DNA of 64,000 nucleotides from Sandaracinaceae bacterium (lineage in GTDB: Bacteria > Myxococcota_A > Polyangia > Polyangiales > Sandaracinaceae). The position numbers were made by a program, and so were the translations under genes. Position 1 is the stretch's first letter. Every line of letters begins with the position of its first letter. The DNA is taken from assembly GCA_040218145.1 (NCBI GenBank), contig JAVJQK010000024.1, forward strand, positions 19,616 through 83,615, written 5' to 3'. The notes below the pieces were generated by a model. It had not been told where the DNA came from and ran no database searches. It saw nothing but the letters and a program-made list of their open reading frames with translations. Positions 24,520 through 46,336 of the stretch are shown here, piece by piece.

Positions 24520-25866
24520 ATGAGCGCAGCCGAGAAGACCCCCAAGAAGACCCCGCCGCCCATCCCGCGCGGGACGTTCTCCGACGTCGTGCCGGTCTCG
24601 CGCAGGGAGCGAGTGGAGGGGCCGGTGGACGTGCCCAAGCCGCCGCCGCTCCCCACGGGCCTCGCGTCGTCCGCGCCTCCGCCCATGCCGCCGAAGGCCG
24701 CCACGCTGCCGCCGGCGATCCCCTTCCTGCGCGTGCCGAAGCCGGTCCGCATGGTGACCGACGAGCCGTTCGCGAGCGAGCGGACGCCGATCCCCGACGA
24801 GCTCGACACGGTCCCCGAGGCGCTCGCGCCCGAGGAGGAGACCTTCGTGCGTCGGGTGCCCGCGCTGGACACGCTCGGCCTGGACGCCGACCTCGACGCC
24901 GAGCCGTCGACGCTCGATCTCGACACGACGCTGGACCTCGACGAGGAGCTCGACGCGCTCGACCCGCGTGGGTTCGTCGCGGACGCGCCCGCCGCCGACG
25001 CGGCGGAAGCGCTCTCGGAGGTGGACGAGGACGCGGAGACGCTCGATCTCGGCTCCAGCGATCGCGTCGATCTCGACGACCTCGTCGATCCTCTCGGGGG
25101 CCCGCGCGCGTCCCTCGCCCCCACCCTGTCGCCGCCGCCGCTCGTGTCGCCCCAGGGCGAAGAGCGCGACCGTCGCGGCGTCGTCTTCGCGTGGAGCCTC
25201 GCCGTCCTCGCGCTGGTCGCCGGCTTCGGCGTGACCGCATGGTGGGTGGGCGCCCGGAGCGCGGAGCGCGTCTCCGCGCCGGTCGCTACGGCCCCGAGCC
25301 CGGCCCCGGTCGCTTCCGAGCTGGAGTCTGCGGAGCCCGCCACGGTCGAGCCCGCCACCGTCGAGCCCGCCACCGTCGAGCCGAGCGTCGAGCCGGCCCT
25401 CGATACGGTGGTGGTCGAGCCGGTCGTGCTCGAAGCCGAGCCCGTCGCCGAGCCCCCGCGGCGCGTCCGGGCCACGCCCCGCGCGAGCGCGGCCAGCCCG
25501 CCCGCGGCCAGCCCGAGCGCGCCCAGCCAGACCGTCGAGGCTCGCCCGGCGCCTGAGCCGGTCGCCGCGCGCGCTCCCGCCCCGCGGCCCGCCTCGGCCG
25601 ACCTGCACGCGCTGCCGACCCGCGCCGAGATCCAGGCCGCGATGGAGAGCGCGCGCCCCTCGATCCAGCAGTGCGGCAGCCCCGCCACCAGCGGCTACGT
25701 GGCCAACATCCGCTTCACCTTCGTCAGCAGCGGCCGGCCCACCCACGCGGTGGTCGAAGGGGTCTCCGGTCAGACCGCGAGCTGCATCGCGCGCGCGGCC
25801 CGCGCCGTCCGCGTGCCGCCGTTCGCGAACGACCGCATGACGGTCCAGTTCCCCTTCTCCCTCTGA
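24520..25866 (+). CDS. Hypothetical Pro-rich single-pass membrane protein with TonB-C/AgmX-like C-terminal domain
   Basis: TM segment VVFAWSLAVLALVAGFGVTAWWV. Low-complexity EP/AP region. Conserved-looking C-terminal ~90 aa. Confidence 0.5.
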   Translation: MSAAEKTPKKTPPPIPRGTFSDVVPVSRRERVEGPVDVPKPPPLPTGLASSAPPPMPPKAATLPPAIPFLRVPKPVRMVTDEPFASERTPIPDELDTVPEALAPEEETFVRRVPALDTLGLDADLDAEPSTLDLDTTLDLDEELDALDPRGFVADAPAADAAEALSEVDEDAETLDLGSSDRVDLDDLVDPLGGPRASLAPTLSPPPLVSPQGEERDRRGVVFAWSLAVLALVAGFGVTAWWVGARSAERVSAPVATAPSPAPVASELESAEPATVEPATVEPATVEPSVEPALDTVVVEPVVLEAEPVAEPPRRVRATPRASAASPPAASPSAPSQTVEARPAPEPVAARAPAPRPASADLHALPTRAEIQAAMESARPSIQQCGSPATSGYVANIRFTFVSSGRPTHAVVEGVSGQTASCIARAARAVRVPPFANDRMTVQFPFSL

Positions 25867-25873
25867 CCGCCGA

Positions 25874-28800
25874 TCACTCGAGCTCGTAGTCGGCGTCGGG
25901 CACGATGCGCTCGGCGACGTCGCGGATGCTGCGGTTGATCTCGTCGAGCTGACGGCCCAGCCCGCTGAGGGTGCCGGTGACCCGGGTGACCGGGTCGTCC
26001 TCGCCGCCGCCCATGGTCTTGAGGCGCTTGTACTCGCGCTTGATCTCGTCCCAGCGCGCCTTCTGTTCCGCGCTCAGCCGGCCGCGCATCTCCGCGAGCT
26101 TGAGGAGGTTCTGCTCCGCGCCCGTGGTCAGCGTCTGGCTCTCGCCGCGATAGTGATCGTCGAGGAGCCGCTCGAGCTCTTCGTCGTTCATCGCGCTGAC
26201 CACCTTCTCGGCGAGCTTGTTCATGTTCCGGTAGCTGCCCTGCAGCTTGAAGGGCGGCTCGGTGCGGTAGTCGTCCTCCATCGAGGCCGACCGGATGTAC
26301 TCCGCGTTCACGCGGCTGAGCACGGCCTGCACCTGCAGGAGCTTCTGGAGCACCGAGACGGCCTCCTGTGACTCGACGGCGGACCAGTCGTGCTCGAAGG
26401 CGCTGCTCGCGACCTCGTCGCCGGAGCCCTGCGCCATCTTCACGAAGCGGTGCACGTCGTCGAGCGAGCGCGTGGCGATGGGGCCCAGCGTGGGGTTGCT
26501 CGTGAGCGCGTTCTCCACGTAGCTGAGCGCGAACTGCTCGCCCTTGCCCTCGAGGATGTCGCCGAGGTTGTAGGTGTCGGCGCGGTTGGCGAGCATGTCG
26601 GGGATCTGGAACTTGTCGCCGCTCTCCGTGTACGGGTTGCCGGCCATGATCACGCAGAAGCGCTTGCCGCGCAGATCGTAGGTGCGCGTCTCGCCGTTCC
26701 ACACGCCCTCGATCCGGCGCTGGCCGTCGCAGAGGCTGATGAACTTCTGCAGCAGCTCCGGGTGGGTGTGCTGGATGTCGTCGAGGTAGAGCATCACGTT
26801 GTTGCCCATCTCGAGCGCGAGGTTGATCTTGTCGACCTCCTGGCGCGCGGTGGCGTTCGGCGCCTCGGCCGGATCGATCGACGTGACCGCGTGGCCGAGC
26901 GAGGGCCCGTTCACCTTCACGAAGACCAGGCCGAGCTGGCTCGCGATGTACTCCATCAACGTCGTCTTGCCGTAGCCCGGCGGGCTGATGAGCAGGAGCA
27001 GGCCCATGCGGTCGGTGCGCGCGTCGGCGCCCGCGGTGCCGATCTGCTTGGCGAGGTTGTCGCCGATCATCGGCAGGTAGACCTCGTCGATCAGCCGGTT
27101 GCGCACGAACGAGCTCAGGACCCGCGGCATCAGCTCGCCGAGCCGGAGCTTGCGCTTCTCGCGCTCCGCCAGCTGGTGCCGCAGCTCGCGATACGCGCGG
27201 TAACGCGGCATGTGATGGTGCACGAAACGGTCGAGCCGCTCGAGCAGCTCGTCGAGCCGCAGCGTCATCGCGCCGCCTTCCACGCGCGGGTGCTGGCCCA
27301 GCAGCCCGTCGAGCTGCACCGTGCCGAGCGCGGCGCTGGTCTCCCGCGCGATGAGACCCTCGGTCACGAGCAGGGCCGCCGCCTCCTCGAGCGACGGCGT
27401 CAGCTCCTCGCGGCGCGCCGCGTCGGGGCCGGCCATCGAGTCGCTGCCGCGTGACAGGAAGGCCTCGATCCAGGCGCGCGCGAGGCTGAGCCGGTCGACG
27501 AGATCGACGTCCGCGCTCTTCAGCTCGTCCTCGAGCAGGCGCCGCGCGTTCTTCTTCTCGAGGTCGTGCCAGAGCGCGTCCTTCAGCTCCACCGCCTCCG
27601 CACTCGTGGTGAAGCGCAGCGCCTCGCGCATCAGCTCCGCCGCGAGGTAGCGGCTCGCGAGCGTGACCTCGCCCTCGGCCGGCGCGTGCCGCGGATCGCG
27701 TCCGAGCTGCTCGGCCTCGACGAAGCGCCCCAGCGCCGACTCGATCTCGGCCTCGAGCTCCGACACCGCGGCGCTCCGGCCGAAGGTGCGGCTGAGCCGG
27801 CCGAGGCTCGCGCCCACGCGCTGCAGGCGGCCGCGCAGGCGGTCGTCCTTGCACGCGGCCCAGAAGAGACAGGCCAGCGCGCGCGGCTGGGGCGGGAAGC
27901 GGAGCAGGCCGGCCGTACTCTCCATCGCGAGCAGCTTCTCGAGGATCCGCGTCGCGTCGGAGTCGTGCACGCCCCGGTCGTAGCCCTCGTCGTAGCGCTG
28001 CTGCGCCTCGCCGCGCACGAGCGCCGCGAGCCGCCCCTCGCGCACCGCCTCGTGCAGCGCGCCCACCGTTCCGTCGCGCTCCGCTCGGAAGAGGATCGTC
28101 GCCGCGAGCAGCTCGCCGCGGTAGACGTGTGGGCTCTCGCTGATCAGCGGCTGATCCCAGAGGTCCTTCATCTCGGCGAGGCGGGGGTCGTCGATGAGCT
28201 GGTAGAAGTCCGAGCCGGTCAGGTGGAAGGCGAGCCCCTCGCCCCGCGGCACGATGGTCAGCTCGAGCGGCTGCGTGTTCACGCCGAACCGGTGACGGCC
28301 GAGCTTGATGATGGAGTCGCCGTCCTCGAAGAGATCCTGCTTGTCGCGCAGAGTGCGCAGCGCGTCCTGACGCGCCGTCTTGAGCTTGGACGCGAGCTCC
28401 TCGGCGTGCACCGAGTCGCCGAGCTCCTGCAAGCGCTCGACGAGGTCGCGCAGCTTGAGCACCATCGCGTCCGAGGCGAACCACGCGTTGAGCGCGTCGG
28501 CGTCCGCGAAGGTGCGCGCGCGCCGGCCGACGCCCTCGAGGATGCGCTCGGCCGCGGTCACCAGGGTGCCGGCGCGCCGCTGCCGCTCGTCGAGGAGGAG
28601 CTGCTTCTTGCCCCCGAACGCCTCGTAGATCTCCTCGCGCTTGGTCGCGAGGTCGCCGACGAACTCCTCGAGCTCGCCGAAGCGGGCCTCGAGCTCCTCG
28701 AGCTGCACCATGAGGCGCGAGAGCTGCTCGTCGCACTGCTCGGGCGTCTCGCATCGGGCGAGCGCGCTCTGCACCGCCTGGCCGAGGAGCGCGAACTGGG

Positions 28801-30868
28801 CGCTGAATTCGGCGCGGCCTTCGCGCGTCAGCACCTCCCGCTTGCGGTTGGCGAGCGACGCGCGCACGCGGTTGAGCTGGGCGTAGACCTCGCCGATGCG
28901 CTCGAGGATCTGGGTGCGCGCGGTGGCGTCTTCGACCTGGAGGCCGCCGACGACCTCGCTCAGGACGTCGAGCCCGTCACCGATGCTCGTGACCTCCGCC
29001 TCGAGCTCCTTGAGGACCGCGCCTTTCTCCGCCGCCTCGATCTTGGCGAGCACCTCCTCGATGCGCTTCTTCAGGGGCGCGAGCGACGCGGGGTCCAGCA
29101 GGAACTCGACCGCCGCCCGGCTGATCTGCTCGAAGCGCTCGGTCGCCTCCTCCTCGAGCGCGGTCAGCGCCGCGAGATCCATGTAGCGGAGCTCGCGCAG
29201 GGTGATGAGGTGGCCGCGCCGCTTCCTGAGCGCGGTCAGCGCCTCCATGTACTTGCCGACCGCCTTCCACTCCTGGGGCCGCAGGGTGCGTAGGAGCTCG
29301 GTCTGCGTCTCGCGCGCGTCCTTCAGGGCGCTCGCGGCGCGGCCGCGAATGGTCTCGACCTTCTCGAACTCGTCGATGACGAGCTCCGCCGTCTGCCGCA
29401 GCCCGTGCAGCGTCTCGCCGAGGTTCGAGACGTCCGCGTGACCGAGCCAGTGGTAGGTGTCGAGGGTGCGGTTGCAGGCCGCGATCAGGTCCTCGAAGCC
29501 TTGCCGGGACGGCGTCTCCGGGGTCGCCAACCGGCGCACGGTGTAGGCGTCGCTGATCCCGCGCACGAGCTCGGCGTTGCCGATCTTCGTCAGGTAGCCG
29601 CCCTCGGCGGGCGCGGCGCGGTCCGCGTGCTCCACGCTCGAGAAGGGCGTCTGCCACACCTGCATCGGGTGCACGCGCACGGGCTCGTCGCCCACCACCC
29701 GGAAGCAGACCATCTTGCCATCCTCGAAGAGCGAGTAGCCGTGGCAGGGGATGGGGTTCTGGACCTCCTTGCGGATGAGGTTGTAGGGCAGGAGCTTGTA
29801 GAGCCCGTCCTCGCGGCGATGGAAGACGTAGAGCACGTCCTCGCCGTTGGGGCTGCGGATCGCGCGCTTGAGCTCGAGCCCCGCCGAGTCGCCCTCGAAG
29901 ATCTTCGTGTCGCCGCTCTGCAGGTAGTAGCCGCCGGGGAAGATGATCCCCTGGTCCTCGGGCAGGCGCAGGCAGGCCTCGCCGATGGCGTCGATGCGCG
30001 TGACGCGGTGGGTGCGGGTGTCGAAGACGAGGTAGCGCGTCTCGGTCTCGCGGTAGGGCAGGACGCGGAGCAGGTAGAGCCCGCCGACCTTGGCCCACGC
30101 GATCTCGGCGTCGTCGAGGGTCTGGTCCTGGTGCTCGACGGGCTCGCGGTAGACGCCCTCGCCGCTCTCGGTGCTGTCCTCGACCTTGATGGTGAGGTCG
30201 CCGTGCAGCGTCTCGACGAACAGCGCGCCGTCGACGTTCACGTGGGGGTAGCGCCCGGCCACGTGGTCGTCGCGGGTGATGGCGGTCCACGCGAAGTCGT
30301 GGCTCGGCGGGAAGACGTGGTGTCGCTCCCCGCGGTTGCCGAGGTAGGCGATCTTCCCGTCCGGCGCGACGCTCCAGTGGAAGACGCGCACGTCCTCGAC
30401 GGTCTCGCCGATCTGGAAGATGGCGAGGAGGTAGCCCGTCTCGGTCATGCGCAGCTGGATGAGCCGCGCCTTCTTGTAGTAGCGGTAGAGCTCCTCGAGC
30501 TCGCGCAGGAAGTCCGGGTGATCGAGCAGCCCCGGGGCGTCGCCGTGATCGAGCTCGAAGCCGTCCGCGCTCTCGCTCAGCGCGTGCACGCTGAAGACGT
30601 CGGCCGCGGTGGGCTCGCGCAGGTGCAGCACCACGTTGAAGCCGAAGAGGAGCCGGCCGCCCACCTGCACGATGTCGCGCGGGACGCAGTTGTTCTCGGT
30701 TCGGACGCGGGTGGTGCCCGCGATGGCGAGCTCCGAGCCGCCGAAGACGTCCTGGCGGCGCTCGTTGAGCCGACCGGCCTTCTCCGCGAGCACCTCGGCC
30801 TGCTTGGCCAGGCGCTCGCGGAGGACCTCATAGCTGCCGCCCTCGAGGGCTTCCTGCTCGTCCGACAA
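25874..30868 (-). CDS. Giant (1,664 aa) protein: N-terminal beta-rich region, central coiled coil, C-terminal MoxR/dynein-like AAA+ ATPase; co-operonic with flotillin
   Basis: Walker A PPGYGKTT. Walker B-like VMLYLDDIQ. TTG start 6 nt after the flotillin stop, with a GAGGAG RBS. Confidence 0.75.
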   Translation of the reverse strand: MSDEQEALEGGSYEVLRERLAKQAEVLAEKAGRLNERRQDVFGGSELAIAGTTRVRTENNCVPRDIVQVGGRLLFGFNVVLHLREPTAADVFSVHALSESADGFELDHGDAPGLLDHPDFLRELEELYRYYKKARLIQLRMTETGYLLAIFQIGETVEDVRVFHWSVAPDGKIAYLGNRGERHHVFPPSHDFAWTAITRDDHVAGRYPHVNVDGALFVETLHGDLTIKVEDSTESGEGVYREPVEHQDQTLDDAEIAWAKVGGLYLLRVLPYRETETRYLVFDTRTHRVTRIDAIGEACLRLPEDQGIIFPGGYYLQSGDTKIFEGDSAGLELKRAIRSPNGEDVLYVFHRREDGLYKLLPYNLIRKEVQNPIPCHGYSLFEDGKMVCFRVVGDEPVRVHPMQVWQTPFSSVEHADRAAPAEGGYLTKIGNAELVRGISDAYTVRRLATPETPSRQGFEDLIAACNRTLDTYHWLGHADVSNLGETLHGLRQTAELVIDEFEKVETIRGRAASALKDARETQTELLRTLRPQEWKAVGKYMEALTALRKRRGHLITLRELRYMDLAALTALEEEATERFEQISRAAVEFLLDPASLAPLKKRIEEVLAKIEAAEKGAVLKELEAEVTSIGDGLDVLSEVVGGLQVEDATARTQILERIGEVYAQLNRVRASLANRKREVLTREGRAEFSAQFALLGQAVQSALARCETPEQCDEQLSRLMVQLEELEARFGELEEFVGDLATKREEIYEAFGGKKQLLLDERQRRAGTLVTAAERILEGVGRRARTFADADALNAWFASDAMVLKLRDLVERLQELGDSVHAEELASKLKTARQDALRTLRDKQDLFEDGDSIIKLGRHRFGVNTQPLELTIVPRGEGLAFHLTGSDFYQLIDDPRLAEMKDLWDQPLISESPHVYRGELLAATILFRAERDGTVGALHEAVREGRLAALVRGEAQQRYDEGYDRGVHDSDATRILEKLLAMESTAGLLRFPPQPRALACLFWAACKDDRLRGRLQRVGASLGRLSRTFGRSAAVSELEAEIESALGRFVEAEQLGRDPRHAPAEGEVTLASRYLAAELMREALRFTTSAEAVELKDALWHDLEKKNARRLLEDELKSADVDLVDRLSLARAWIEAFLSRGSDSMAGPDAARREELTPSLEEAAALLVTEGLIARETSAALGTVQLDGLLGQHPRVEGGAMTLRLDELLERLDRFVHHHMPRYRAYRELRHQLAEREKRKLRLGELMPRVLSSFVRNRLIDEVYLPMIGDNLAKQIGTAGADARTDRMGLLLLISPPGYGKTTLMEYIASQLGLVFVKVNGPSLGHAVTSIDPAEAPNATARQEVDKINLALEMGNNVMLYLDDIQHTHPELLQKFISLCDGQRRIEGVWNGETRTYDLRGKRFCVIMAGNPYTESGDKFQIPDMLANRADTYNLGDILEGKGEQFALSYVENALTSNPTLGPIATRSLDDVHRFVKMAQGSGDEVASSAFEHDWSAVESQEAVSVLQKLLQVQAVLSRVNAEYIRSASMEDDYRTEPPFKLQGSYRNMNKLAEKVVSAMNDEELERLLDDHYRGESQTLTTGAEQNLLKLAEMRGRLSAEQKARWDEIKREYKRLKTMGGGEDDPVTRVTGTLSGLGRQLDEINRSIRDVAERIVPDADYELE

Positions 30869-30874
30869 CGCCGA

Positions 30875-33127
30875 TCACTCCTCGGAGGCGCTGGCGCCCT
30901 CGGGGTCGAGCCCGAGCTCTCGCGCCTTGTCGATCAGCTGCTGCAGCTTGCCCTTGTCGACCCCGCCGCGGCTCATCAGCTGGCCCAGCGCCGCGCTGAG
31001 CGTCAGCGACTGCACCGCCTGCGGCGTGACCCGCGGGCGCGTCAAGACGTCCTTCAGGTCTTGCGGGAGGCTGCTGTCGCCCGCGAGGTACTCCGCGAGC
31101 ACCTTCTGCGCGGTGTCCGACTGGCCGACGAAGCCGTCGATGCTCTGGCCCATGCCGACCGCCTTGACGAAGCGCTCGAAGAACTCCCCGTCGCCGCCGA
31201 CGATGTTCATCTTGGTGTTCTTGAACGCCTCGCCCAGGGTCTTCGCCTGCGCCTCGGCCACGTGCCGGTGGTTCTCGATCCGGGCGAGCTCGACCTCCTT
31301 GTCCTTCTCGAGCCGGATGCGGAACTCCTCGTGCTCCTTGGCCGCGCCCTGGAGCTTCTTCATCGCCTCGGCCTTCTCGCTCAGGCCGGCCGCCTCCGCG
31401 AGCAGCTTCTCGCGCACCGCGGTCGCCTCGGCGAGGCCCTGCTTCTCGACCGCCGCGGCCTTCTCGATCTCGACGTGCGCCTCGGCCATGCCCTTCTCGC
31501 GCTGGCCAGCCGCCTCGGCGAGGAGCTTCTCCTTCGCGCCCTGCGCCTCGGCGAGCAGGCGCTCGCGGGTGGCGTTCGCCTCGGCCTGGCCCTGCTTCTC
31601 GACCGCGGCCGCGTCGGCTTCGCGGACCTTCACGGTGGCGAGGCCCTTCTTCTCCTCGCCCGCCGCCTCGGCCTGCATCTGCTCGAGCGTCACGCGCGCC
31701 TTGACCATGCCCTCCTTCTCGATCGCGGCCGCCATGGCCTCCTTGACCTGCACGTCGGCGAGCCCGGGCGCGGCCGCCTCGGCCTTGGTTCCGTCCGCGG
31801 TGCGGATCTTCGCCTTGGCCTCCTTGTCGGCCGCCTCGAGCGAGGCGTCGGCGTCGATGAGCTTGGTGCGCGCCTGGAATTTCGCGACCTCCTCCTGCGC
31901 CTCGGCCGCCTTGATGTCCTTGACGAGCTTCTCCTGCGCCGCGGCCTCGGCCCCGATGCGGATGGTCTCCTTGTCGCGCTCGGCGGTGGCGAGGGCGCGC
32001 AGCGTCAGGATGCCCTCCTCCTCCTCGGCGACCTTCTTCTCGACCGAGATCCGGCCCGAGATGAGGTCGGCGATCTCCTTCTTCTCGGCCTCGAGCGCCT
32101 TCTCCTTCGAGATGCGCGACAGCTCCACCTCGCGCTCGCGCGACACGATCTCGAGGCCCTTGTCCTTCTCGACGCGCTCCGCCTCGACCGTGATCGTGCG
32201 CTGCTTGTTCCACTGCGCGACCGCGACCTGGCGCTGCTTGTTCTCCTCGGCGATCTGCATCTCCTCCTGAGCTGCGATCTTCGCCATCTCCGAGCGCTTG
32301 TTCTCCTCGGCGCGGATCTTGTCCGTCTCGGCCGTCTCGCGCGCCTGCATGACCGCGATCTCGCGCTGCTGCCGGGCGTGGGCCTCGGCGCGCTGCTTCT
32401 CGAGCTCGAACACCGCCTGGTCGGACTCGACGTTCTGGCGGGTGATCTCCTTGCGCTCGTCCTGCTTGTACTTGTTGGTCAGGACCGCCTGCTGCGTGGT
32501 GAGCATGGTGATCTTGTGGATGCCCTGGGCGTCGAGCACGTCCTGCGCGTCGAGGTGCTCGAGCGGCGTCTGCTCGAGGTAGTCGATGGCCGCGTCCTCG
32601 AGCACGAAGCCGTTCAGGTCCTCCCCGATGACCCGCACGATGTCGTCGCGGAACTTCTCCCGCTCCTTGTAGAGGTCCTCGAAGTCGAGGCGCTTGCCTA
32701 CCGTCTTGAGCGCCTCCGAGAACTTCGCCGCGAAGAGCTCTTCGACCGCGGCCTGCTCGGACGCGCGCCGGACGCCGACGCTCTGCGCGACCCGCAGCAC
32801 GTCCTCCTGGGTCTTGTTCACCCGGACGAAGAAGGTGACCTTGATGTCCGCGCGGATGTTGTCCTGGCAGATGAGCCCCTCGCCGCCGCGGCGGTCGACC
32901 TCGATGGTCTTGACCGAGATGTCCATCTCCTCGGCCCGGTTGATGACCGGCCAGACCATGCCCCCCGCGAAGCTCACCGTCGGTTCGCCGCGGGCCCCGT
33001 TGATGACCAGCGCGCGGCCCTGGTCCACCTTCCGGTAGAACCGCACCATCATCGTCAGGAAGCCGACGACCAACAGGAGGCCTACGCCTCCCACGACGGC
33101 GAATGGAAGAATGTCGTCCGGGCTCAT
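30875..33127 (-). CDS. Flotillin/SPFH (band-7) family protein with extended Ala/Glu/Lys-rich coiled-coil repeats
   Basis: N-terminal TM segment. SPFH core. Internal ~45-aa coiled-coil repeats. RBS GGAGGAG before ATG 33127. Confidence 0.85.
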   Translation of the reverse strand: MSPDDILPFAVVGGVGLLLVVGFLTMMVRFYRKVDQGRALVINGARGEPTVSFAGGMVWPVINRAEEMDISVKTIEVDRRGGEGLICQDNIRADIKVTFFVRVNKTQEDVLRVAQSVGVRRASEQAAVEELFAAKFSEALKTVGKRLDFEDLYKEREKFRDDIVRVIGEDLNGFVLEDAAIDYLEQTPLEHLDAQDVLDAQGIHKITMLTTQQAVLTNKYKQDERKEITRQNVESDQAVFELEKQRAEAHARQQREIAVMQARETAETDKIRAEENKRSEMAKIAAQEEMQIAEENKQRQVAVAQWNKQRTITVEAERVEKDKGLEIVSREREVELSRISKEKALEAEKKEIADLISGRISVEKKVAEEEEGILTLRALATAERDKETIRIGAEAAAQEKLVKDIKAAEAQEEVAKFQARTKLIDADASLEAADKEAKAKIRTADGTKAEAAAPGLADVQVKEAMAAAIEKEGMVKARVTLEQMQAEAAGEEKKGLATVKVREADAAAVEKQGQAEANATRERLLAEAQGAKEKLLAEAAGQREKGMAEAHVEIEKAAAVEKQGLAEATAVREKLLAEAAGLSEKAEAMKKLQGAAKEHEEFRIRLEKDKEVELARIENHRHVAEAQAKTLGEAFKNTKMNIVGGDGEFFERFVKAVGMGQSIDGFVGQSDTAQKVLAEYLAGDSSLPQDLKDVLTRPRVTPQAVQSLTLSAALGQLMSRGGVDKGKLQQLIDKARELGLDPEGASASEE

Positions 33128-33393
33128 CTCTGCTCTCCTCCGCTGACTCGACGCACGCCCGCGCCGGTCTCCGCGAGAGCCTGGCCCCTCCATGCCCCCC
33201 GAAGCGTCGCGAACGCCCGATCTACACGATCCCCGTGGTGGCTGTCAGCCGGACCTGTGAGGCCTCGGACCTGTGTCACCGACGGTTGTCGAGGAGTGCA
33301 ACAGGGAGCGGGGGCCCCCATTCCGGAAATCGGAGCCTGCCCGTGCCCGTGCCCGCGAATTCGCCCCGAGAATCCGCGGGCAAGAGCAGCCTG

Positions 33394-33786
33394 CTATCGC
33401 GGGCGGTGCTCGGTCCCGGCCCCGGCGGTGATGAAGACCGCGGTGGCGCTCTCGTCCACGTCCGCGGTGTGCCAGACGCCGGGCTCGTTGATCGCGTACT
33501 CCCCGGCCTTAAGCGTCACCGAGCGGGTCTCGCCGTCCGACTCCTGGATCAGCGTGATCTCCCCCGCCGTGCACAGCACGACCTCGTGCCCGCGCGGGTG
33601 CATCTCCCACGTCGTCCACGGCTCCGAGAAGGTGTGCATCGAGACGAGCCGCCCCTCCTCGCCGTCCGCCGCGTGGCGCGCGCCGTAGCCCGCGTACCAG
33701 CTCATCTCACCCGTGAAGTCCGGCTCGCGGACCGCGGTGGCCCCGAGGCCGAGGTGGATGGGATTGTTCGAGAGTCGGTCGGCCAT
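33394..33786 (-). CDS. Cupin-domain protein
   Basis: Cupin motifs HPRGHEVVLCTAGE and GEYAINEPGVWH. Confidence 0.55.
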   Translation of the reverse strand: MADRLSNNPIHLGLGATAVREPDFTGEMSWYAGYGARHAADGEEGRLVSMHTFSEPWTTWEMHPRGHEVVLCTAGEITLIQESDGETRSVTLKAGEYAINEPGVWHTADVDESATAVFITAGAGTEHRPR

Positions 33787-33863
33787 GCGCCCTTCTACCC
33801 GAGCGCCCGCGGCCGACCAAGTCCCGGCTCTGACGACGGCGCGTTCCGCGGGTATAGTCGGCC

Positions 33864-35615
33864 GTGACCTCGCGACCGCCGACCCCGAGCCGGCTCGCCG
33901 CGCCCGTGGCGCAGGCGATCCTCGAGGCGTTCCAGGAGCAGCGCGCCGGCTTCCTCGAGATCACGCGCCGGGCCCGCGAGAGCTTCGAGGCGCGGGACTG
34001 GGTGCGCTTCCGGGCCGACAGCAAGAAGCGTCTCGGGCTCTACCGGCAGCACGTCGACAAGGCGGAGATGCGGGTGCGCGTCCTCCTGGGCGAGCGCGCG
34101 AGAGACCGGCTCGTCTGGGTCAGCGCCAAGGCGGTGTACTCGGCGCTGATCGCGATGCGACAGGACTGGGACGTCGCCGAGACCTTCTTCAACGGGGTCA
34201 CGCGGCGGCTCTTCGACACGGTGGGCGTCGACCCGCTCGTCGAGTTCGTCGCGAGCGACTTCGACGCCCCGCCGTCCGAGCCGGAGCACCGGGTCTACCG
34301 CCGCTTCGCGGGCTCGGACGTGGCGGACCTCGTGTGCCGCGCGATCGCGTCGAACGTCTTCGCGCTCCCGTTCGTGGATCTCGAGGCCGACGCGGCGCTG
34401 GTCGCGGAGCGCGCCGCGGTGAAGCTCGCCGACATCGACCGCGGGCAGCCCGTCGCCTACGAGGTGCTCGAGGCGCCGTTCTTCCATGGCAAGGGGGCGT
34501 ACCTCGTCGGGCGGCTGGTGCTCCCCGCGGGCGCGGTGCTGCCGCTGGTGCTCGCGCTCCGGAATGGGCCCGAGGGGATCTTCGTCGACGCGGCGCTCAC
34601 CGAGTCGGACGACGTCTCCATCCTCTTCTCGTTCACGCGGAGTTACTTCCACGTGGACGCCGAGCGGCCGTACGACGTGATGCGCTTCCTGCGCTCGCTG
34701 ATCCCGAAGAAGCGCATCGCCGAGATCTACATCGCCATCGGCGAGCCCAAGCAGGGCAAGACCGAGCTGTACCGGGCGATCATGGATCACATCGACGAGT
34801 CGAGGGACACCTTCGGCTTCGCGCCCGGGACCCCGGGCCTCGTGATGGTGGTCTTCACCATGCCGGGCATGGACGTGGTGGTGAAGGTGATCCGCGACGA
34901 GTTCCCGCCCGAGAAGCAGTCGACGTCGACGGCCCACGTGCGCGACCGCTACAACTGGGTCTACGAGCACGACCGCGCGGGCCGGCTGGTGGACGCGCAG
35001 GAGTTCGAGTTCCTCGCCTTCCCCAAGGCGCGCTTCGAGCCCGCGCTGCTCGAGGAGCTGCTCGAGGAGTGCGGCAAGACGGTGCGCGTCGACGGCGACC
35101 GGGTGGTCATCGACCGCTGCTACGTCTCGCGACAGCTCGTGCCGCTGAACCTCTACATCCGGCAGCGCGAGCAGGCCGAGGCGCAGGCCGCGCTCGCGGA
35201 GTGGGGCAACTCCATCCGCGACATGGCGGCTTGCAACATCTTCCCCGGCGATCTGCTGCTGAAGAACTTCGGCGTCACCCGGCACGGGCGCGTCGCGCTC
35301 TACGACTACGACGAGCTGCAGCCGCTGACCGAGATGACCTTCCGTGACGTGCCCGAGGCGCGCTACGCGGAGGACGAGCTGCGGGCCGAGCCGTGGTACG
35401 CGGTCGGCGCGCACGACGTGTTTCCCGAGGAGTTCCCCCGGTTCCTCGCGGTCCCGGGGCGCCTCAAGGAGGGGCTCGCCCGCGACTGCGCCGACATCTT
35501 CGACGCCAGCTGGTGGCGCAAGGTCCAGGGCCGGGTCGAGCGCGGCAAGATCGTCGAGCTGGTGCCCTACGACGAGAAGCGCCGACTGCGCAGCGACCCC
35601 GCCGCGGACGACTGA
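33864..35615 (+). CDS. aceK: Bifunctional isocitrate dehydrogenase kinase/phosphatase
   Basis: AceK-specific blocks FNGVTRRLFD, LVMVVFTMPG.DVV.KVIRD.F.P.K, NIFPGDLLLKNFGVTRHGRVALYDYDE and EPWYAVGAHDVFPEEF. Confidence 0.88.
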   Translation: MTSRPPTPSRLAAPVAQAILEAFQEQRAGFLEITRRARESFEARDWVRFRADSKKRLGLYRQHVDKAEMRVRVLLGERARDRLVWVSAKAVYSALIAMRQDWDVAETFFNGVTRRLFDTVGVDPLVEFVASDFDAPPSEPEHRVYRRFAGSDVADLVCRAIASNVFALPFVDLEADAALVAERAAVKLADIDRGQPVAYEVLEAPFFHGKGAYLVGRLVLPAGAVLPLVLALRNGPEGIFVDAALTESDDVSILFSFTRSYFHVDAERPYDVMRFLRSLIPKKRIAEIYIAIGEPKQGKTELYRAIMDHIDESRDTFGFAPGTPGLVMVVFTMPGMDVVVKVIRDEFPPEKQSTSTAHVRDRYNWVYEHDRAGRLVDAQEFEFLAFPKARFEPALLEELLEECGKTVRVDGDRVVIDRCYVSRQLVPLNLYIRQREQAEAQAALAEWGNSIRDMAACNIFPGDLLLKNFGVTRHGRVALYDYDELQPLTEMTFRDVPEARYAEDELRAEPWYAVGAHDVFPEEFPRFLAVPGRLKEGLARDCADIFDASWWRKVQGRVERGKIVELVPYDEKRRLRSDPAADD

Positions 35616-35984
35616 TCAGTCGTAGAAGAGCTCCGACGCGTCGACCGTCTCGACGCCCTCCACGTCGTCCGCGATCGCGATCGCGCGCTCCCACTCGGCG
35701 CCGTCACGGACGCGGCCGCTGAGCCACACCGAGGTTCCGTCGACGCGCACCGAGATCGCCGAGGCGTCGAGGCCCTCGTCGCCGAGCTCCTCCTGGACCT
35801 CGTCGGCGATCTCCTCCTCGGTGGTCACGTGAAAGGTCGGCCCCTCCTGCATGGGGCCGAGGCCGTCGGCCATCGCGCCAGCGCCGCCAGCGGTGACGTT
35901 GTCGTTCACGACCACGGGCTCACTCTGGTCGCTCGCGCAGGCGCCGAGCGCGAGCGCGGCGCAGATCATCATCAAGGTTCGCAT
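35616..35984 (-). CDS. BON-domain lipoprotein
   Basis: Lipobox LALGAC. C-terminal BON-like region (ISVRVDGTSVWLSGRV). Confidence 0.55.
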   Translation of the reverse strand: MRTLMMICAALALGACASDQSEPVVVNDNVTAGGAGAMADGLGPMQEGPTFHVTTEEEIADEVQEELGDEGLDASAISVRVDGTSVWLSGRVRDGAEWERAIAIADDVEGVETVDASELFYD

Positions 35985-36197
35985 ACCCGGCGCTGGCGCA
36001 AGGCGCGTGCCGCCGCCGCGAGCGCCGCGCGCGGGCTCGCGCTTCGTGGCAGATCGTCCCGCCGAGCGTCCTCGCCCACCGACAGTCTCATCCACACGTG
36101 GCGGGGATCGCGTGGTCGCCGTTCGAGAGAAAAGCGGCGTGCTGATCGCGATACGGGTCAAGTCCCGGCCTGAACCACCGATCAGGGGGTTGAAGCC

Positions 36198-37901
36198 ATG
36201 CACCACACCCGCGTCTTCTTCATCGCCTGCTGTCTCTCCGCCTGTGGTGCGCCCACCGCGCAGGACGGCGCGCCGAGCGCGCGCTTCGACGGCGACCGAT
36301 GTGTCGCCGCGCTCGACGCTTGGGCGCTCCGGGGCGGGTTGCCGTCCGCGCTCCAGGATCCAGACGCGCCGCCGATCGGCGACGGCTCGCAGGCGGAGGC
36401 CTATCACCACGAGTGCTTCGGCGTGCCGACGACGCAGCTGTCGGTTCGGTGCGAGGCGTCCGACGCGAGGGCGTGCTTGCTCGTGGGGCTCGCGCTCACG
36501 GACGAGCTGACGGGAGACCGCGCCCAGGGCAGGGCGGCGTTCGCGAGGGCGTGCGCGGGCGGGGAGCGGCACGGCTGTCACCTCGAGGGCGTCGCGGCGT
36601 CGCGCGCGGGGGACGTCGAGGGCGCGACGGCGGCGCTCTCCACCGCGTGTGAGCAGGGCCTGGCCGCGGCGTGCGGCGAGTGGGGCGCGCTCACGGACGA
36701 TGGGCGGCGTGTGCGCCGGGCGTGCCGCGATGGGCACCTCCCGTCGTGCGAGACCGTCGAGTCGGCCAGCGCGGCCCGTCGGCTCTGCTACGCGGGCGTC
36801 GGGCACGCGTGTCACCGCGCCGTCGACGCCTGGCTCCGGGCCGAAGAGGAGCCCTTCGACGCGCGCGAGGCCGAGACGATGGCCGCGCGCGCGTGCGACG
36901 CGGGGGACGCGGACCTCTGCACCGGATCCCGGGCCGGGCAGCTGGCTCAGCGGCGGGCGCGTCGAGCCTGGCGCTCGCGCTGCGCGTCGGGGGACGCCGA
37001 GGGCTGCGTCGCGTCGCTCGAGCTGGCCGACCAGGCGGGGCTCACCGCGGAGGCGACGCAGGCGATGGCGCGCTTCTGCGCGGTCGAAGGCGCCCCCGCC
37101 GCGTGCCGTGCGGCGTGCGAGAGCCGGGGCAGCGCGCTCGTCGCGTCGCTCACCGAGGCCTGCGTGGGAGGCGAGGCCGAGGCCTGCCTCCGCGCGGCGA
37201 CGATGGTGCGCGCTGGCTGCGGCGCCACGGGCGGGGTGGCCTGCGTGCGTCGCTACGCGTTCGCGGGCTGCGCCGGCGGAGACTGCCCGGAGTGGTCGGC
37301 GCTCGAGGATCGCCCGGACGACGGCTCGGAGAGCTGCCCGCTGCCTCCCACCGTGGCGCTGCGCCTGCACGACGCCGACGATCTGCGCGAGGTGGCCGCG
37401 GCGCTCGAGGGCGCGGTCGACGACCGGTCCATGAGCTCGATCCGGGACCTGACCTCCGCCGCGCCCAACGTGTTCCCGGCCATCGACCGGTTCGGCCGCC
37501 GCATCGCCGTGCCCGAGCCCTGCGCCGAGCGGAGCGAGGGGTCCATCCGGGTGCTGCGCGCGGCCAACGGCGCGACGGTGGATAGCCTCCCGATCTGGCA
37601 GGCCCCCGCGCCCGGGCGCGACCGGGCGAGCCACGTGCGGGGGGTCATCCGGCCGCTCTTCGCCGCGCTCCCTCGCCGCCTCGAGGGCTTCCGGCCGATG
37701 CGACGGCTGGCCGAGGGGGACGACTTCCGTCGGGAGGGCCGCGTCGCCGTCGTCACCCACCAGGGGGCGCGGCTCCGCGTGGAGCTCCCGCGCGGCTGCG
37801 AGCGGGAGTCCGTCCGCGCGTGGCTGGACGAGGCGAGCGGCGCCGTCCTGGTGGAGCACCGCGCCTGCGGCGCCGTGTCCTTTCAGACCGGTCGCCTCTG
37901 A
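36198..37901 (+). CDS. Cys-rich lipoprotein with Sel1-like repeats (hypothetical)
   Basis: Lipobox LSAC. Regular A-C-x-G-x-x-x-x-C repeats. Confidence 0.5.
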   Translation: MHHTRVFFIACCLSACGAPTAQDGAPSARFDGDRCVAALDAWALRGGLPSALQDPDAPPIGDGSQAEAYHHECFGVPTTQLSVRCEASDARACLLVGLALTDELTGDRAQGRAAFARACAGGERHGCHLEGVAASRAGDVEGATAALSTACEQGLAAACGEWGALTDDGRRVRRACRDGHLPSCETVESASAARRLCYAGVGHACHRAVDAWLRAEEEPFDAREAETMAARACDAGDADLCTGSRAGQLAQRRARRAWRSRCASGDAEGCVASLELADQAGLTAEATQAMARFCAVEGAPAACRAACESRGSALVASLTEACVGGEAEACLRAATMVRAGCGATGGVACVRRYAFAGCAGGDCPEWSALEDRPDDGSESCPLPPTVALRLHDADDLREVAAALEGAVDDRSMSSIRDLTSAAPNVFPAIDRFGRRIAVPEPCAERSEGSIRVLRAANGATVDSLPIWQAPAPGRDRASHVRGVIRPLFAALPRRLEGFRPMRRLAEGDDFRREGRVAVVTHQGARLRVELPRGCERESVRAWLDEASGAVLVEHRACGAVSFQTGRL

Positions 37902-37935
37902 CCTCTCGCCTGCGATCGAGTACCCTGTCGCCGGG

Positions 37936-45364: not shown

Positions 45365-45601
45365 CGCCCCGGAGCATAACGAAGACGGAAGCAGAACGCG
45401 CAGCCCCCGGATGGAGGCCGCGCGTTCGGCGGGGGGAGCGCGAGGCTCAGGCGGGGGGCGGGCAGACCGAGGTGTCCATGGGACACGCGCCGGTCGCGCA
45501 GCGGTGCATGACCTCCGGGCGCAGGCTCACGTCGAGGCTGAGCGGCGTCTCCGCGTCCGCGCCGGCGTGGATCGTGGGCGGGCACAGTCCAATCCCGCCG
45601 C

Positions 45602-46336
45602 TCACGCTCGCTTCTTGCGCCCGGGGAGGAGCGCCTCCATCGGCTCGACCTCGAACGCGTTCTTCTCTTCGTCCCAGTCGACGATCAGCGCCTCGTCGCC
45701 GCGCTCGAGGGCCTCGGGGTCGGCGCAGCGGACATGGAGAATCATGCCGGCTTGCCCATCCTTCAGCTCCGCCTGCCCGAAGCCCCCGTCGACGTTGCCG
45801 GTGCGGATGCGGACGACCTGACCGACGAGGTCGCGGTTGCCCCTGGCCTTGTGCACCCTGAAGAGCGGCGCCATCGGACGGGTCAGCAGCGACGTCAGCG
45901 GCACCGCGGCGAGGAGCGCGGCGAGGGTGACCACGAGGCCCGAGAGGAAGCCGCCGAGGGGGAGCGCGGGCGCGAGGTAGCGGGCCCCGAAGAAGGAGGC
46001 GAGCCAGCCGAGGAGCACGACGAGGCTGAAGACGACGGTCAGCGGCGCGTGGCGCAGCCCGAGCGCGGACAGCAGCCCCGCGAAGCCGCCGACGCCGAGC
46101 TCACCCTCGGCCGCCCCGTCCGCCGCGCCATCGACCGCGCCGTCCACTGCGCCATCGACCGCGCCGTCGACCGCGCCATCGAGCGCGCCGTCCGCGCCGT
46201 CGAGCCCGCCCGGGTCGAAGAGGTCGAGGTCCAGCGCGCCCAGGACGACCGACAGCCAGTACAGGACGACCACCACGAGGAGGCCGGTGAAGGCCAGCGT
46301 GGGCATGGAGAGCGCGACGGCGAGGAAGTCCTGCAT
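45602..46336 (-). CDS. YqiJ/NfeD-like membrane protein (TM helices + C-terminal OB-fold) with (DGAV)n repeat
   Basis: Two TM regions. OB-like C-terminus VGQVVRIRTGNVDGGFGQAELKDGQAGMILHV. 15-nt tandem repeat at about 46100-46210. Confidence 0.6.
   Translation of the reverse strand: MQDFLAVALSMPTLAFTGLLVVVVLYWLSVVLGALDLDLFDPGGLDGADGALDGAVDGAVDGAVDGAVDGAADGAAEGELGVGGFAGLLSALGLRHAPLTVVFSLVVLLGWLASFFGARYLAPALPLGGFLSGLVVTLAALLAAVPLTSLLTRPMAPLFRVHKARGNRDLVGQVVRIRTGNVDGGFGQAELKDGQAGMILHVRCADPEALERGDEALIVDWDEEKNAFEVEPMEALLPGRKKRA

What the first reader, a model, noticed from the sequence alone, without database searches (positions are those of the whole stretch)
25874..33127. Flotillin (SPFH) gene translationally coupled to a 1,664-aa protein with a MoxR-like AAA+ ATPase domain
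Both genes are on the minus strand and the flotillin stop lies 6 nt from the ATPase TTG start, with a GAGGAG RBS inside the flotillin 3' end. The ATPase gene has a large N-terminal beta-rich region, a ~400-aa coiled-coil middle and a C-terminal MoxR/dynein-like AAA+ core (PPGYGKTT, LYLDDIQ). The flotillin has an unusually long repeated coiled coil. SPFH scaffolds are normally partnered with NfeD/YqiJ proteins. A dedicated giant ATPase partner suggests an uncharacterised membrane-microdomain machine, for example a remodelling, stress or defence function. This is the most system-like unit in the window.
Basis: partly seen in the sequence, partly recalled or inferred. Interest (0 to 1): 0.8.

Follow-up and report, generated by a model that had tools for sequence, protein, structure and literature searches.

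The report
Flotillin operon with giant AAA+ ATPase
This is a real two-gene operon that pairs a membrane-scaffold flotillin with a 1,664-residue ATPase; the pairing is conserved across at least seven bacterial phyla and was noted in a 2024 comparative-genomics paper, but nobody has tested what it does.

Summary
An SPFH/flotillin gene (30875-33127, minus strand) ends 6 nt before the TTG start of a 1,664-aa gene (25874-30868), and a GAGGAG sits just before the flotillin stop.

The large protein contains:
- a beta-propeller (Pfam DUF3686);
- about 430 residues of long helices;
- a helical pre-AAA region;
- a MoxR/midasin/dynein-class AAA+ module with intact Walker A, sensor-1 and Arg-finger motifs and an invariant DD Walker B.

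Synteny is strong. A flotillin homolog lies directly upstream on the same strand in 76 of 78 related loci. In the plasmid collection, all 12 full-length relatives of this flotillin lie next to the ATPase.

A third conserved gene, a divergent YqiJ/NfeD-like membrane protein, precedes the flotillin in 72 of the 80 loci. In this window it lies 12.4 kb away, at 45602-46336. So the ATPase accompanies NfeD and does not replace it.

Gammaproteobacterial versions add PspA, YjfI, rhomboid and PLD genes, which points to membrane stress. I found no support for DNA repair or phage defence.

Ravi et al. 2024 (PMC11237479) already described this operon class computationally. This is a new member of a known but experimentally uncharacterised kind.

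The parts
30875..33127 (-). Flotillin-type SPFH gene (750 aa). It has an N-terminal membrane anchor (residues 3-31), an SPFH/Band_7 domain (about 33-200), about 400 residues of Ala/Glu/Lys-rich helix with repeats at about 466-585, and a variable C-terminal tail. An alternative upstream ATG lies at 33193.
   Evidence: Band_7, 34.1 bits against cut-off 23.6; weak FloT hit; hydropathy and composition; residues 26-475 are conserved across 70 homologs; 476-575 vary because of indels. GAGGAG lies 7 nt before the ATG at 33127.
30866..30883 (-). Gene junction: GAGGAG (30883-30878), flotillin stop TGA (30877-30875), 6-nt spacer TCGGCG, and the ATPase start TTG (30868-30866). The two ORFs are in the same reading frame.
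   Evidence: sequence read directly. One search shows that short gaps or 4-nt overlaps are common at this junction in related loci.
25874..30868 (-). Giant AAA+ ATPase gene (1,664 aa, cytoplasmic, no predicted TM segment), annotated 'DNA repair ATPase' in public databases.
   Evidence: more than 5,500 homologs; no TM; the DUF3686 domain occurs essentially only in proteins of 1,550-2,040 aa.
29450..30790 (-). DUF3686 domain (residues 27-473), a beta-propeller preceded by an N-terminal helix (12-42).
   Evidence: PF12458, 639 bits. (AF2 pLDDT 87.5, about 30 strands at 48-406). (Foldseek matches to WD40/DCAF1, the prolyl oligopeptidase propeller, Sec12 and the clathrin N-terminal domain; E 1e-6 to 1e-4, about 10% identity).
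28331..29635 (-). Long-helix or coiled-coil region (residues 412-846), which includes Pfam DUF7902 (595-678).
   Evidence: helices of 46, 58 and 51 residues, pLDDT mostly above 85. (DUF7902, E 1.6e-26).
27059..28312 (-). Pre-AAA region (residues 853-1270): a small beta unit followed by a helical bundle. Its fold was not assigned.
   Evidence: AF2 pLDDT about 90. No separate structural match was obtained because the AAA+ core dominated the searches.
26429..27007 (-). AAA+ module (residues 1288-1480). Motifs: Walker A PPGYGKTT (1296-1303), Walker B MLYLDDIQH (1359-1367, DD instead of DE), a pre-sensor-1 beta-hairpin (1385-1398), sensor-1 N1411, Arg finger R1429, and the lid.
25877..26428 (-). 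C-terminal helical extension (residues 1481-1664). It is longer and more variable in most homologs and carries a PilZ domain in one Sorangium member.
45602..46336 (-). Displaced third component: a divergent YqiJ/NfeD-like membrane protein (three TM helices, an acidic linker and a C-terminal OB-like domain), 12.4 kb upstream of the flotillin on the same strand.
   Evidence: its homologs lie directly upstream of the flotillin in 72 of the 80 fetched loci. (weak hits to YqiJ_N at 8e-5, YqiJ_OB and NfeD). (59% identity to the adjacent gene in L083/L084).

Best explanation
The two genes are the core of a conserved three-protein module that works on the cytoplasmic face of the inner membrane. This reading covers how the parts assemble, what the ATPase does, and when the module acts.

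The assembly step is inferred from the solved SPFH cages: the flotillin oligomerises into a membrane-anchored SPFH cage or raft scaffold. The YqiJ/NfeD-like partner, encoded 12 kb away in this genome, binds and stabilises it through its OB-like domain.

The ATPase step is also inferred. The giant soluble protein forms a MoxR/dynein-class AAA+ ring. Its beta-propeller and long helical arms dock on the flotillin assembly. ATP hydrolysis then remodels the scaffold, either by assembling, opening or disassembling it, or by loading and releasing client membrane proteins.

The timing comes from gene context. The module most likely acts in envelope or membrane stress, together with PspA-type (ESCRT-III-like) proteins, which are encoded in the same operon in Gammaproteobacteria and elsewhere in other lineages.

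Shown here: gene structure, domain folds, intact ATPase motifs, and near-obligate synteny in both directions.

Inferred: physical contact between the proteins, ring formation, and which component the ATPase acts on.
For: Synteny:
- A flotillin homolog (40-58% identity) lies directly upstream on the same strand in 76 of 78 loci that include upstream DNA. These loci span Myxococcota, Actinomycetota, Gammaproteobacteria, Acidobacteriota and Planctomycetota. Deinococcus and Hymenobacter megaplasmids also carry the pair.
- In 72,556 plasmid records, all 12 flotillin matches that cover at least 80% of the query lie in ATPase-bearing records and next to the ATPase. The 32 weaker matches, limited to the N-terminal SPFH-containing part of the query (30-56% coverage), are in records that lack the ATPase.
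- Operon-like spacing: the median gap is 59 nt, and 32 of 74 junctions are 20 nt or less or overlap.
- A YqiJ/NfeD-like third gene is conserved in 72 of the 80 fetched loci.

Membrane-stress context:
- Gammaproteobacterial loci carry DUF2170(YjfI)-PspA upstream and rhomboid and PLD genes downstream.
- On pQBR103 the module sits in one gene array with PspA, rhomboid and the yjfK/L/M/C-like genes.

ATPase competence and class:
- The Walker A lysine, Walker B acidic pair, sensor-1 Asn and Arg finger are invariant in 41 sequences.
- The ATPase has no TM segment; the flotillin has one N-terminal anchor.

Independent literature: Ravi et al. 2024 reach the same operon definition and propose a chaperone-like role in assembling membrane-linked complexes.
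Against: - No experiment exists on any member.
- Complex prediction was not possible with these tools, so contact between the propeller or helical arms and the flotillin is unproven.
- MoxR-class ATPases normally work with a VWA/MIDAS partner, and none was found here.
- The Walker B is DD, not DE, so hydrolysis may be slow or regulatory.
- PspA is adjacent in only 15 of 80 loci and is absent from this 64-kb window, so the stress link is indirect for this genome.
- The window lacks an adjacent YqiJ-like gene, so tight three-gene stoichiometry is not essential.
Confidence: 0.5

Rival explanations
1. The ATPase acts mainly on PspA/IM30 (ESCRT-III-like) polymers, as Vps4 does, and the flotillin/YqiJ assembly only recruits it to damaged membrane.
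For: PspA and its YjfI-type partner lie in the same operon in 15-16 gammaproteobacterial loci and on pQBR103. Ravi et al. 2024 frame the module as a PspA partner and note that most bacterial PspA proteins lack a known ATPase. SPFH proteins can recruit PspA: YdjI in B. subtilis, as cited.
Against: PspA is adjacent in only 15 of 80 loci, against 76 of 78 for the flotillin. No PspA was found in this window. The AAA+ core is MoxR/dynein-class, not the classical Vps4 clade, and has no MIT-like domain.
Confidence: 0.17
2. It is a MoxR-like maturation chaperone that uses the flotillin platform to insert a cofactor into, or assemble, a specific membrane complex such as a respiratory or transport complex. 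The flotillin itself would not be remodelled.
For: The closest structural relatives are CbbQ and NorQ, which activate or mature specific client enzymes. Flotillins are widely proposed to promote assembly of membrane complexes (background knowledge; also the introduction quoted).
Against: There is no VWA/MIDAS adaptor and no conserved client gene in the neighbourhood. Outside Gammaproteobacteria only the three core genes are conserved.
Confidence: 0.15
3. It is an anti-phage or abortive-infection system in which a membrane scaffold and an NTPase sense infection and trigger membrane damage, for example through the PLD or rhomboid partners.
For: The distribution within Pseudomonas and the Enterobacterales is patchy, and copies occur on megaplasmids. 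An HKD/PLD hydrolase neighbour is present in 8 loci. An AbiEii gene lies two genes downstream in L082.
Against: The only PADLOC matches are P-loop-only hits at E of 1e-3 or weaker. There is no match in 50,697 phage records. The flanking genes here are housekeeping or metabolic: AceK, a cupin-like ORF, ChaC and SDR (the cupin ORF was read by eye). The partner genes are PspA/yjf membrane-stress genes, not defence genes. The three-gene core is near-universal across the sampled Myxococcota and many Actinomycetota loci, which fits vertical inheritance.
Confidence: 0.08
4. It is a DNA-repair ATPase, as the database name says.
For: Support comes only from the Pfam title of DUF3686 and the NCBI product name derived from it. 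There is also weak P-loop similarity to RuvB.
Confidence: 0.02

Closest known systems
PspA-associated band-7/flotillin + YqiJ/YuaF + 'novel AAA+ ATPase with coiled-coil and beta-propeller' operon (Ravi et al. 2024, mSystems, PMC11237479)
   Same: The window has the same three protein architectures. Its gammaproteobacterial relatives have the same extra partners (YjfI/CesT-like, PspA, PLD). The window matches that paper's 'abbreviated operon' that lacks PspA.
   Different: In the window even the YqiJ-like gene is detached by 12.4 kb, which leaves a two-gene flotillin-ATPase operon. A Sandaracinaceae MAG shares this layout. The paper gives no structure models, synteny statistics or experiments.
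NfeD-flotillin pairs: E. coli YqiJ-YqiK, B. subtilis YuaF-FloT
   Same: A membrane-anchored SPFH protein with an Ala/Glu-rich coiled coil, plus a 3-TM partner with an OB-fold.
   Different: By my own recollection, which I did not check, those operons have no ATPase. This flotillin is about 200 residues longer and scores only weakly against the FloT model (18 bits against a cut-off of 700). The YqiJ-like partner is too divergent to pass Pfam thresholds. No copy of the ATPase gene was found in 5,426 E. coli genomes, although that search had limited sensitivity.
SPFH cage plus AAA+ protease assemblies: HflK/C-FtsH and prohibitin with the m-AAA protease
   Same: An SPFH oligomer functionally coupled to a ring AAA+ machine at a membrane. 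This precedent suggests that SPFH cages gate or organise ATP-driven remodelers (background knowledge; abstracts).
   Different: This ATPase has no protease domain and no TM segment. It belongs to the MoxR/dynein class, not the classical FtsH clade. It carries a beta-propeller and long helical arms.
MoxR-class AAA+ ATPases (CbbQ, NorQ, RavA) and midasin/dynein AAA modules
   Different: The core is 13-15% identical to CbbQ, NorQ and midasin and 11% to dynein. There is no VWA/MIDAS partner, the Walker B is DD, and there is a 1,270-residue N-terminal extension. No clear helix-2 beta-hairpin insert appears in the model. By Foldseek E-value RuvB ranks first.
Vps4 with ESCRT-III, and PspF/PspA
   Same: An ATPase linked by gene context to a membrane-remodelling polymer of the PspA/ESCRT-III family.
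   Different: The AAA+ clade and accessory domains differ, and PspA is an occasional neighbour, not a constant one.

Membership tests
SPFH / flotillin family | SPFH (Band_7) domain detected above the curated threshold | tested here: met
   Pfam Band_7 scores 34.1 bits against a cut-off of 23.6 over residues 33-175.
SPFH / flotillin family | N-terminal membrane anchor followed by a long Ala/Glu-rich coiled coil (flotillin-type, not stomatin-type) | tested here: met
   A hydrophobic segment covers residues 3-31. The A/E/K/Q/R fraction is 0.5-0.72 over about 230-640. Public records call the homologs 'flotillin family protein'.
SPFH / flotillin family | Orthology to FloT (NCBIfam equivalog NF058507) | tested here: not met
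   The score is 18.2 bits against a cut-off of 700. This is a separate flotillin subfamily.
NfeD/YqiJ-SPFH operon | An NfeD/YqiJ-type gene adjacent to the SPFH gene | tested here: not met
   In the window the gene upstream of the flotillin is a cupin-like ORF (130 aa, 33394..33786) after a 266-nt spacer. The YqiJ-like gene lies at 45602-46336. The feature is met in 72 of the 80 related loci fetched.
NfeD/YqiJ-SPFH operon | The partner belongs to the YqiJ/NfeD families by profile | tested here: inconclusive
   Only sub-threshold hits were found: YqiJ_N in 3 of 21 members (best 8.3e-5), YqiJ_OB at 0.013 and NfeD at 0.021. The layout (TM helices, acidic linker, C-terminal beta region) fits the family.
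DUF3686-AAA ('DNA repair ATPase', PF12458) family | N-terminal DUF3686 plus DUF7902 plus a C-terminal AAA domain in one polypeptide of about 1,600-2,000 aa | tested here: met
   DUF3686 scores 639 bits, DUF7902 92.7 bits and AAA 32.8 bits, all above their cut-offs. Homologs share the same architecture.
DUF3686-AAA ('DNA repair ATPase', PF12458) family | A role in DNA repair, as the name implies | not testable with these tools
   No DNA-binding domain was detected, the partners are membrane proteins, and no supporting literature was found. The name appears to be unsupported.
MoxR-class AAA+ (helix-2 insert / pre-sensor-1 hairpin clade) | The AAA+ core is structurally closest to MoxR, midasin or dynein modules | tested here: met
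MoxR-class AAA+ (helix-2 insert / pre-sensor-1 hairpin clade) | A helix-2 insert beta-hairpin | tested here: inconclusive
   The model shows an 18-residue insertion (1321-1338) between beta2 and alpha2 with no hairpin.
MoxR-class AAA+ (helix-2 insert / pre-sensor-1 hairpin clade) | A cognate VWA/MIDAS partner protein or domain | tested here: not met
   Pfam found no VWA domain in the protein or in the neighbours I scanned. No VWA-like gene is among the conserved neighbour clusters.
PspA-linked CesT/Tir-PspA-flotillin-AAA operon (Ravi et al. 2024) | The flotillin, AAA+ (propeller plus coiled coil) and YqiJ trio | tested here: met
   The architectures match the published description. All three genes are present in the window, although the YqiJ-like gene is not adjacent.
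PspA-linked CesT/Tir-PspA-flotillin-AAA operon (Ravi et al. 2024) | An adjacent CesT/Tir (YjfI)-PspA dyad | tested here: not met
   Neither tblastn nor a profile built from 13 operon-linked PspA proteins found a PspA in the 64-kb window. The window therefore fits the 'abbreviated' form.
Known anti-phage defence systems (PADLOC-DB) | A significant match to a defence-system protein model | tested here: not met
   The only hits are P-loop-only matches of 29-38 residues at E of 1e-3 or weaker (IetA, mad8). The flotillin has none.

The most novel reading that the evidence does not exclude
The flotillin, the YqiJ-like protein and the giant ATPase form an ATP-driven machine that opens, closes or disassembles SPFH cages. 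A MoxR/dynein-class ring would grip the flotillin coiled-coil cap through its beta-propeller and helical arms and so control access to, or turnover of, an enclosed membrane patch. This would be a bacterial counterpart of Vps4 acting on ESCRT-III, or of an uncoating ATPase acting on a coat. It would give the first energy-dependent mechanism for a bacterial flotillin.
Probability: 0.3. Interest if true: 0.75.

Novelty: new member of a known kind. Interest (0 to 1): 0.45.

Why it matters
What bacterial flotillins do mechanistically is still debated, and no flotillin has a known energy source. This flotillin subfamily is tied to a 1,600-2,000-residue AAA+ ATPase in both directions of the synteny test, across at least seven phyla. 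That gives a concrete handle on the question.

The module occurs in tractable organisms: Myxococcus, Streptomyces, Proteus mirabilis, Vibrio campbellii, and the pQBR103 megaplasmid of P. fluorescens SBW25. Deletions and ATPase-dead alleles could be tested there against membrane stress.

The public product name 'DNA repair ATPase' should also be treated as unsupported. The association itself is already in the literature (Ravi et al. 2024). The value here lies in quantifying it and adding structure models, not in discovering it.

Tried and rejected
- PADLOC scan of both proteins: only P-loop noise.
- Sequence search of the PDB with a 15-sequence profile: only 33-67-residue matches spanning Walker A, to NVL, RuvB, Rix7 and p97. 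The flotillin had no PDB sequence hit.
- Phage collection: no match.
- E. coli genomes, blastn 'distant' with the Limnobaculum ortholog: no match, with limited sensitivity.
- Literature searches for DUF3686, PF12458 and 'flotillin + DNA repair ATPase': nothing. 'SPFH + MoxR' and 'flotillin + Myxococcus xanthus + ATPase' gave only irrelevant papers. The P. aeruginosa SPFH survey and the Popp et al. Psp survey do not mention the ATPase.
- Promoter and terminator scan of 25500-34000: nothing above the shuffled expectation, and no terminator between the two genes.
- PspA in the window: none by tblastn or by a custom profile.
- Possible NfeD-DUF3686 fusion (P0199): rejected as probably a merged gene call, because about 270 residues of Arg/Pro-rich sequence separate the two parts.
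- In-frame arrangement of the two ORFs (possible readthrough fusion): rejected as coincidence, because the spacing and frame are not conserved in relatives.
- 'Protocoatomer-like' reading of the propeller-plus-helix architecture: not pursued. The IFT-A, Nup and clathrin matches have TM-scores of 0.08-0.18 and most likely reflect little more than the propeller.
- Self-BLAST of the flotillin did not report the Ala/Glu repeats, which are visible by eye.

Full report
**Observation**

The window has about 72% GC. Two long minus-strand ORFs occupy 25874..30868 and 30875..33193. Their third-position GC is 0.97 and 0.96, and their second-position GC is 0.42 and 0.40, the signature of real genes in such a genome.

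The junction was read directly: GAGGAG (30883-30878), TGA (30877-30875), TCGGCG, then TTG (30868-30866). TTG is the only start codon available upstream of residues that are invariant in homologs (G11, Y13).

The pair is bounded by a convergent gene (24520..25866, plus strand) on one side. On the other side there is a 266-nt spacer, a small cupin-like ORF, and a divergent AceK gene. It is therefore a two-gene operon. No terminator-like site lies between the genes.

**What the proteins are**

The upstream protein (750 aa) passes the Pfam Band_7 threshold. It has a single N-terminal hydrophobic segment (3-31), then about 400 residues rich in Ala, Glu and Lys, with repeats visible at about 466-585. 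It is a flotillin-type SPFH protein but not a FloT ortholog (18 bits against a cut-off of 700).

The downstream protein (1,664 aa) has no TM segment. Pfam finds DUF3686 at residues 27-473 (639 bits), DUF7902 at 595-678, and an AAA domain at 1291-1411.

AF2 models were built from 41-sequence alignments and are confident (pLDDT 87.5 and 86.4). They show, in order:
- an N-terminal helix (12-42);
- a beta-propeller (strands 48-406), with Foldseek matches to WD40/DCAF1, the prolyl oligopeptidase propeller, Sec12 and the clathrin N-terminal domain;
- about 430 residues of very long helices (412-846);
- a small beta unit plus a helical bundle (853-1270);
- an AAA+ module with a pre-sensor-1 beta-hairpin (1385-1398);
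- a helical C-terminal extension.

Walker A (GKT, 1300-1302), Walker B (DD, 1363-1364), sensor-1 N1411 and Arg finger R1429 are invariant.

No solved structure is related beyond the P-loop by sequence.

**Is the pairing conserved?**

The ATPase has more than 5,500 homologs, which NCBI names 'DNA repair ATPase' after the Pfam title. The nearest are uncultured Sandaracinaceae and other Myxococcota. The DUF3686 domain defines 743 clusters at 50% identity, and its full-length members are nearly all 1,550-2,040 aa.

I fetched the best 80. They come from Myxococcota, Actinomycetota, Gammaproteobacteria, Acidobacteriota and Planctomycetota.

tblastn found a flotillin homolog (40-58% identity) directly upstream on the same strand in 76 of the 78 loci that include upstream DNA. 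One locus has it 6.5 kb away and one lacks it. The gap between the two genes is 20 nt or less in 32 of 74 loci, and 4-nt overlaps are common.

The reverse test used the plasmid collection as a closed set. Thirteen records carry the ATPase. All 12 flotillin matches covering at least 80% of the query lie in those records, next to the ATPase. The thirteenth ATPase record has a partial flotillin match beside the ATPase. The other 32 records match only the N-terminal SPFH-containing part of the query, at 22-30% identity, and none carries the ATPase. This flotillin subfamily and the ATPase are therefore mutually dedicated.

Clustering all ORFs in the loci revealed a membrane protein of about 200-230 aa directly upstream of the flotillin in 72 of the 80 fetched loci. 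It has TM helices, an acidic linker and a C-terminal beta region. It gives sub-threshold hits to YqiJ_N, YqiJ_OB and NfeD. I read it as a divergent YqiJ/NfeD-like partner.

The window has this gene, but at 45602-46336 on the minus strand, 12.4 kb upstream, followed by a 1,160-aa lipoprotein-like ORF. It is 59% identical to the copy that sits next to the flotillin in a relative whose ATPase is 73% identical. A Sandaracinaceae MAG shares the window's split layout, with AceK divergent from the flotillin-ATPase pair and the lipoprotein gene about 7.5 kb upstream. The ATPase therefore accompanies NfeD/YqiJ and does not replace it.

**Context elsewhere**

In Gammaproteobacteria the trio is preceded by DUF2170 (YjfI-like) and PspA/IM30 genes (16 and 15 loci), and followed by rhomboid (mostly downstream) and HKD/PLD genes (7 and 8 loci). 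On megaplasmid pQBR103 of P. fluorescens SBW25 the gene order is PspA, rhomboid, DUF2491, DUF350, DUF1190, a glutathionylspermidine-synthase-like gene, the YqiJ-like gene, SPFH, then the ATPase.

Outside Gammaproteobacteria only the three core genes are conserved. The window contains no PspA.

Defence and mobility checks gave little:
- PADLOC gave no meaningful hit.
- The phage collection gave no match.
- E. coli genomes gave no match.

**Literature**

Nothing in the library mentions DUF3686 or PF12458. Ravi et al. 2024 (mSystems 9:e00847-23, PMC11237479; preprint 2020) describe exactly this operon. They report CesT/Tir-PspA combined with three proteins:
[quoted passage not shown] - a YqiJ/YuaF 3-TM protein.

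They note a PLD hydrolase in some Proteobacteria. [quoted passage not shown] Their proposal is a chaperone-like role in assembling membrane-linked complexes. I found no experimental work on any member.

**Mechanism**

Most likely (confidence about 0.5), the three proteins form one machine on the cytoplasmic face of the membrane.
- The flotillin builds an SPFH scaffold or cage. This is by analogy with the solved HflK/C and flotillin assemblies, which is background knowledge.
- The YqiJ-like protein stabilises it.
- The ATPase forms a ring whose propeller and helical arms dock on the scaffold. ATP hydrolysis remodels the scaffold or its clients during membrane stress.

The gene structure, folds, motifs and two-way synteny are shown. 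Contact, ring formation and the substrate are inferred.

The rivals are:
- a Vps4-like action on PspA polymers (0.17), weakened because PspA is adjacent in only 15 of 80 loci;
- a MoxR-style maturation chaperone for an unknown client (0.15), weakened because no VWA adaptor or conserved client gene was found;
- phage defence (0.08);
- DNA repair (0.02), which rests only on a database title.

**Verdict**

It contrasts the ATPase with NfeD/YqiJ, when the ATPase actually accompanies that partner. It also implies the pairing is new, when the class was described in 2024.

This is a new member of a computationally described but experimentally untouched class. The window shows a lineage-specific split of the three-gene operon. 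I rate interest as moderate (0.45). A bacterial flotillin with its own ATPase is a good experimental entry point, but it is not a new discovery.

Noticed in passing
window 42044-46336 (- strand): The displaced YqiJ/NfeD-like gene (45602-46336) is followed on the same strand by a 1,160-aa ORF with a lipobox-like N-terminus and no Pfam match. A Sandaracinaceae MAG (L082) has a homolog of the big ORF (88% identity over the 52 C-terminal residues held in the locus) at a similar distance (about 7.5 kb) from the flotillin. The detached YqiJ-like gene may have acquired a new partner.
   Followed up: partly
window 30866-30877: The flotillin and ATPase ORFs are in the same reading frame, separated only by TGA and two codons, so stop-codon readthrough would fuse them. 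The spacing and frame are not conserved in relatives, so this is probably coincidence.
   Followed up: partly
P0065 (Sorangium sp. homolog, 1,890 aa), residues 1811-1882: One Sorangium ortholog carries a C-terminal PilZ domain (28.1 bits against a cut-off of 22.5). This hints at c-di-GMP control of the ATPase in some lineages. The C-terminal tail is the most variable part of the family.
   Followed up: no
P0199 (metagenomic protein, 1,345 aa): An NfeD1b_N (ClpP-like, long-NfeD) domain is joined to DUF3686 through about 270 residues of Arg/Pro-rich sequence. This is most likely a merged gene call in high-GC DNA. If so, it places a long-NfeD gene directly upstream of a DUF3686 gene with no flotillin between them.
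   Followed up: partly
L081 (pQBR103, NC_009444.1 85112-97641): On the P. fluorescens SBW25 megaplasmid the module lies in one co-directional gene array with PspA, rhomboid and homologs of the E. coli yjfK/L/M/C genes (DUF2491, DUF350, DUF1190, glutathionylspermidine-synthase-like). This is a ready experimental system.
   Followed up: partly
window 33864-35615 (+ strand): An isocitrate dehydrogenase kinase/phosphatase (AceK) gene lies divergent from the flotillin operon. The same adjacency is conserved in a Sandaracinaceae MAG (L082, 68% identity).
   Followed up: partly
window 18397-20088 (- strand): A 563-aa ORF combines a weak TerB-like N-terminal match (E 7e-4, below the cut-off) with a calcineurin-like metallophosphoesterase domain. 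A second metallophosphoesterase gene lies divergent from it at 20190-21197.
   Followed up: no
window 35616-38997: A 794-aa ORF with a C-terminal BON domain (35616-38000, minus strand) overlaps in coordinates a response-regulator-adenylate/guanylate-cyclase gene (37936-38997, plus strand). The true extent of the minus-strand gene was not resolved.
   Followed up: no
L082 17089-17997: An AbiEii toxin-family gene lies two genes downstream of the ATPase in the Sandaracinaceae MAG. It is the only defence-type neighbour seen, and it is absent from the window.
   Followed up: no
window 31378-31702 (flotillin residues 476-583): The Ala/Glu repeat block of the window's flotillin aligns poorly with 70 homologs (majority fraction 0.25-0.40, against 0.6-0.8 on either side). 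This suggests extra repeat copies here. The protein is 750 aa against a family median of 692.
   Followed up: partly
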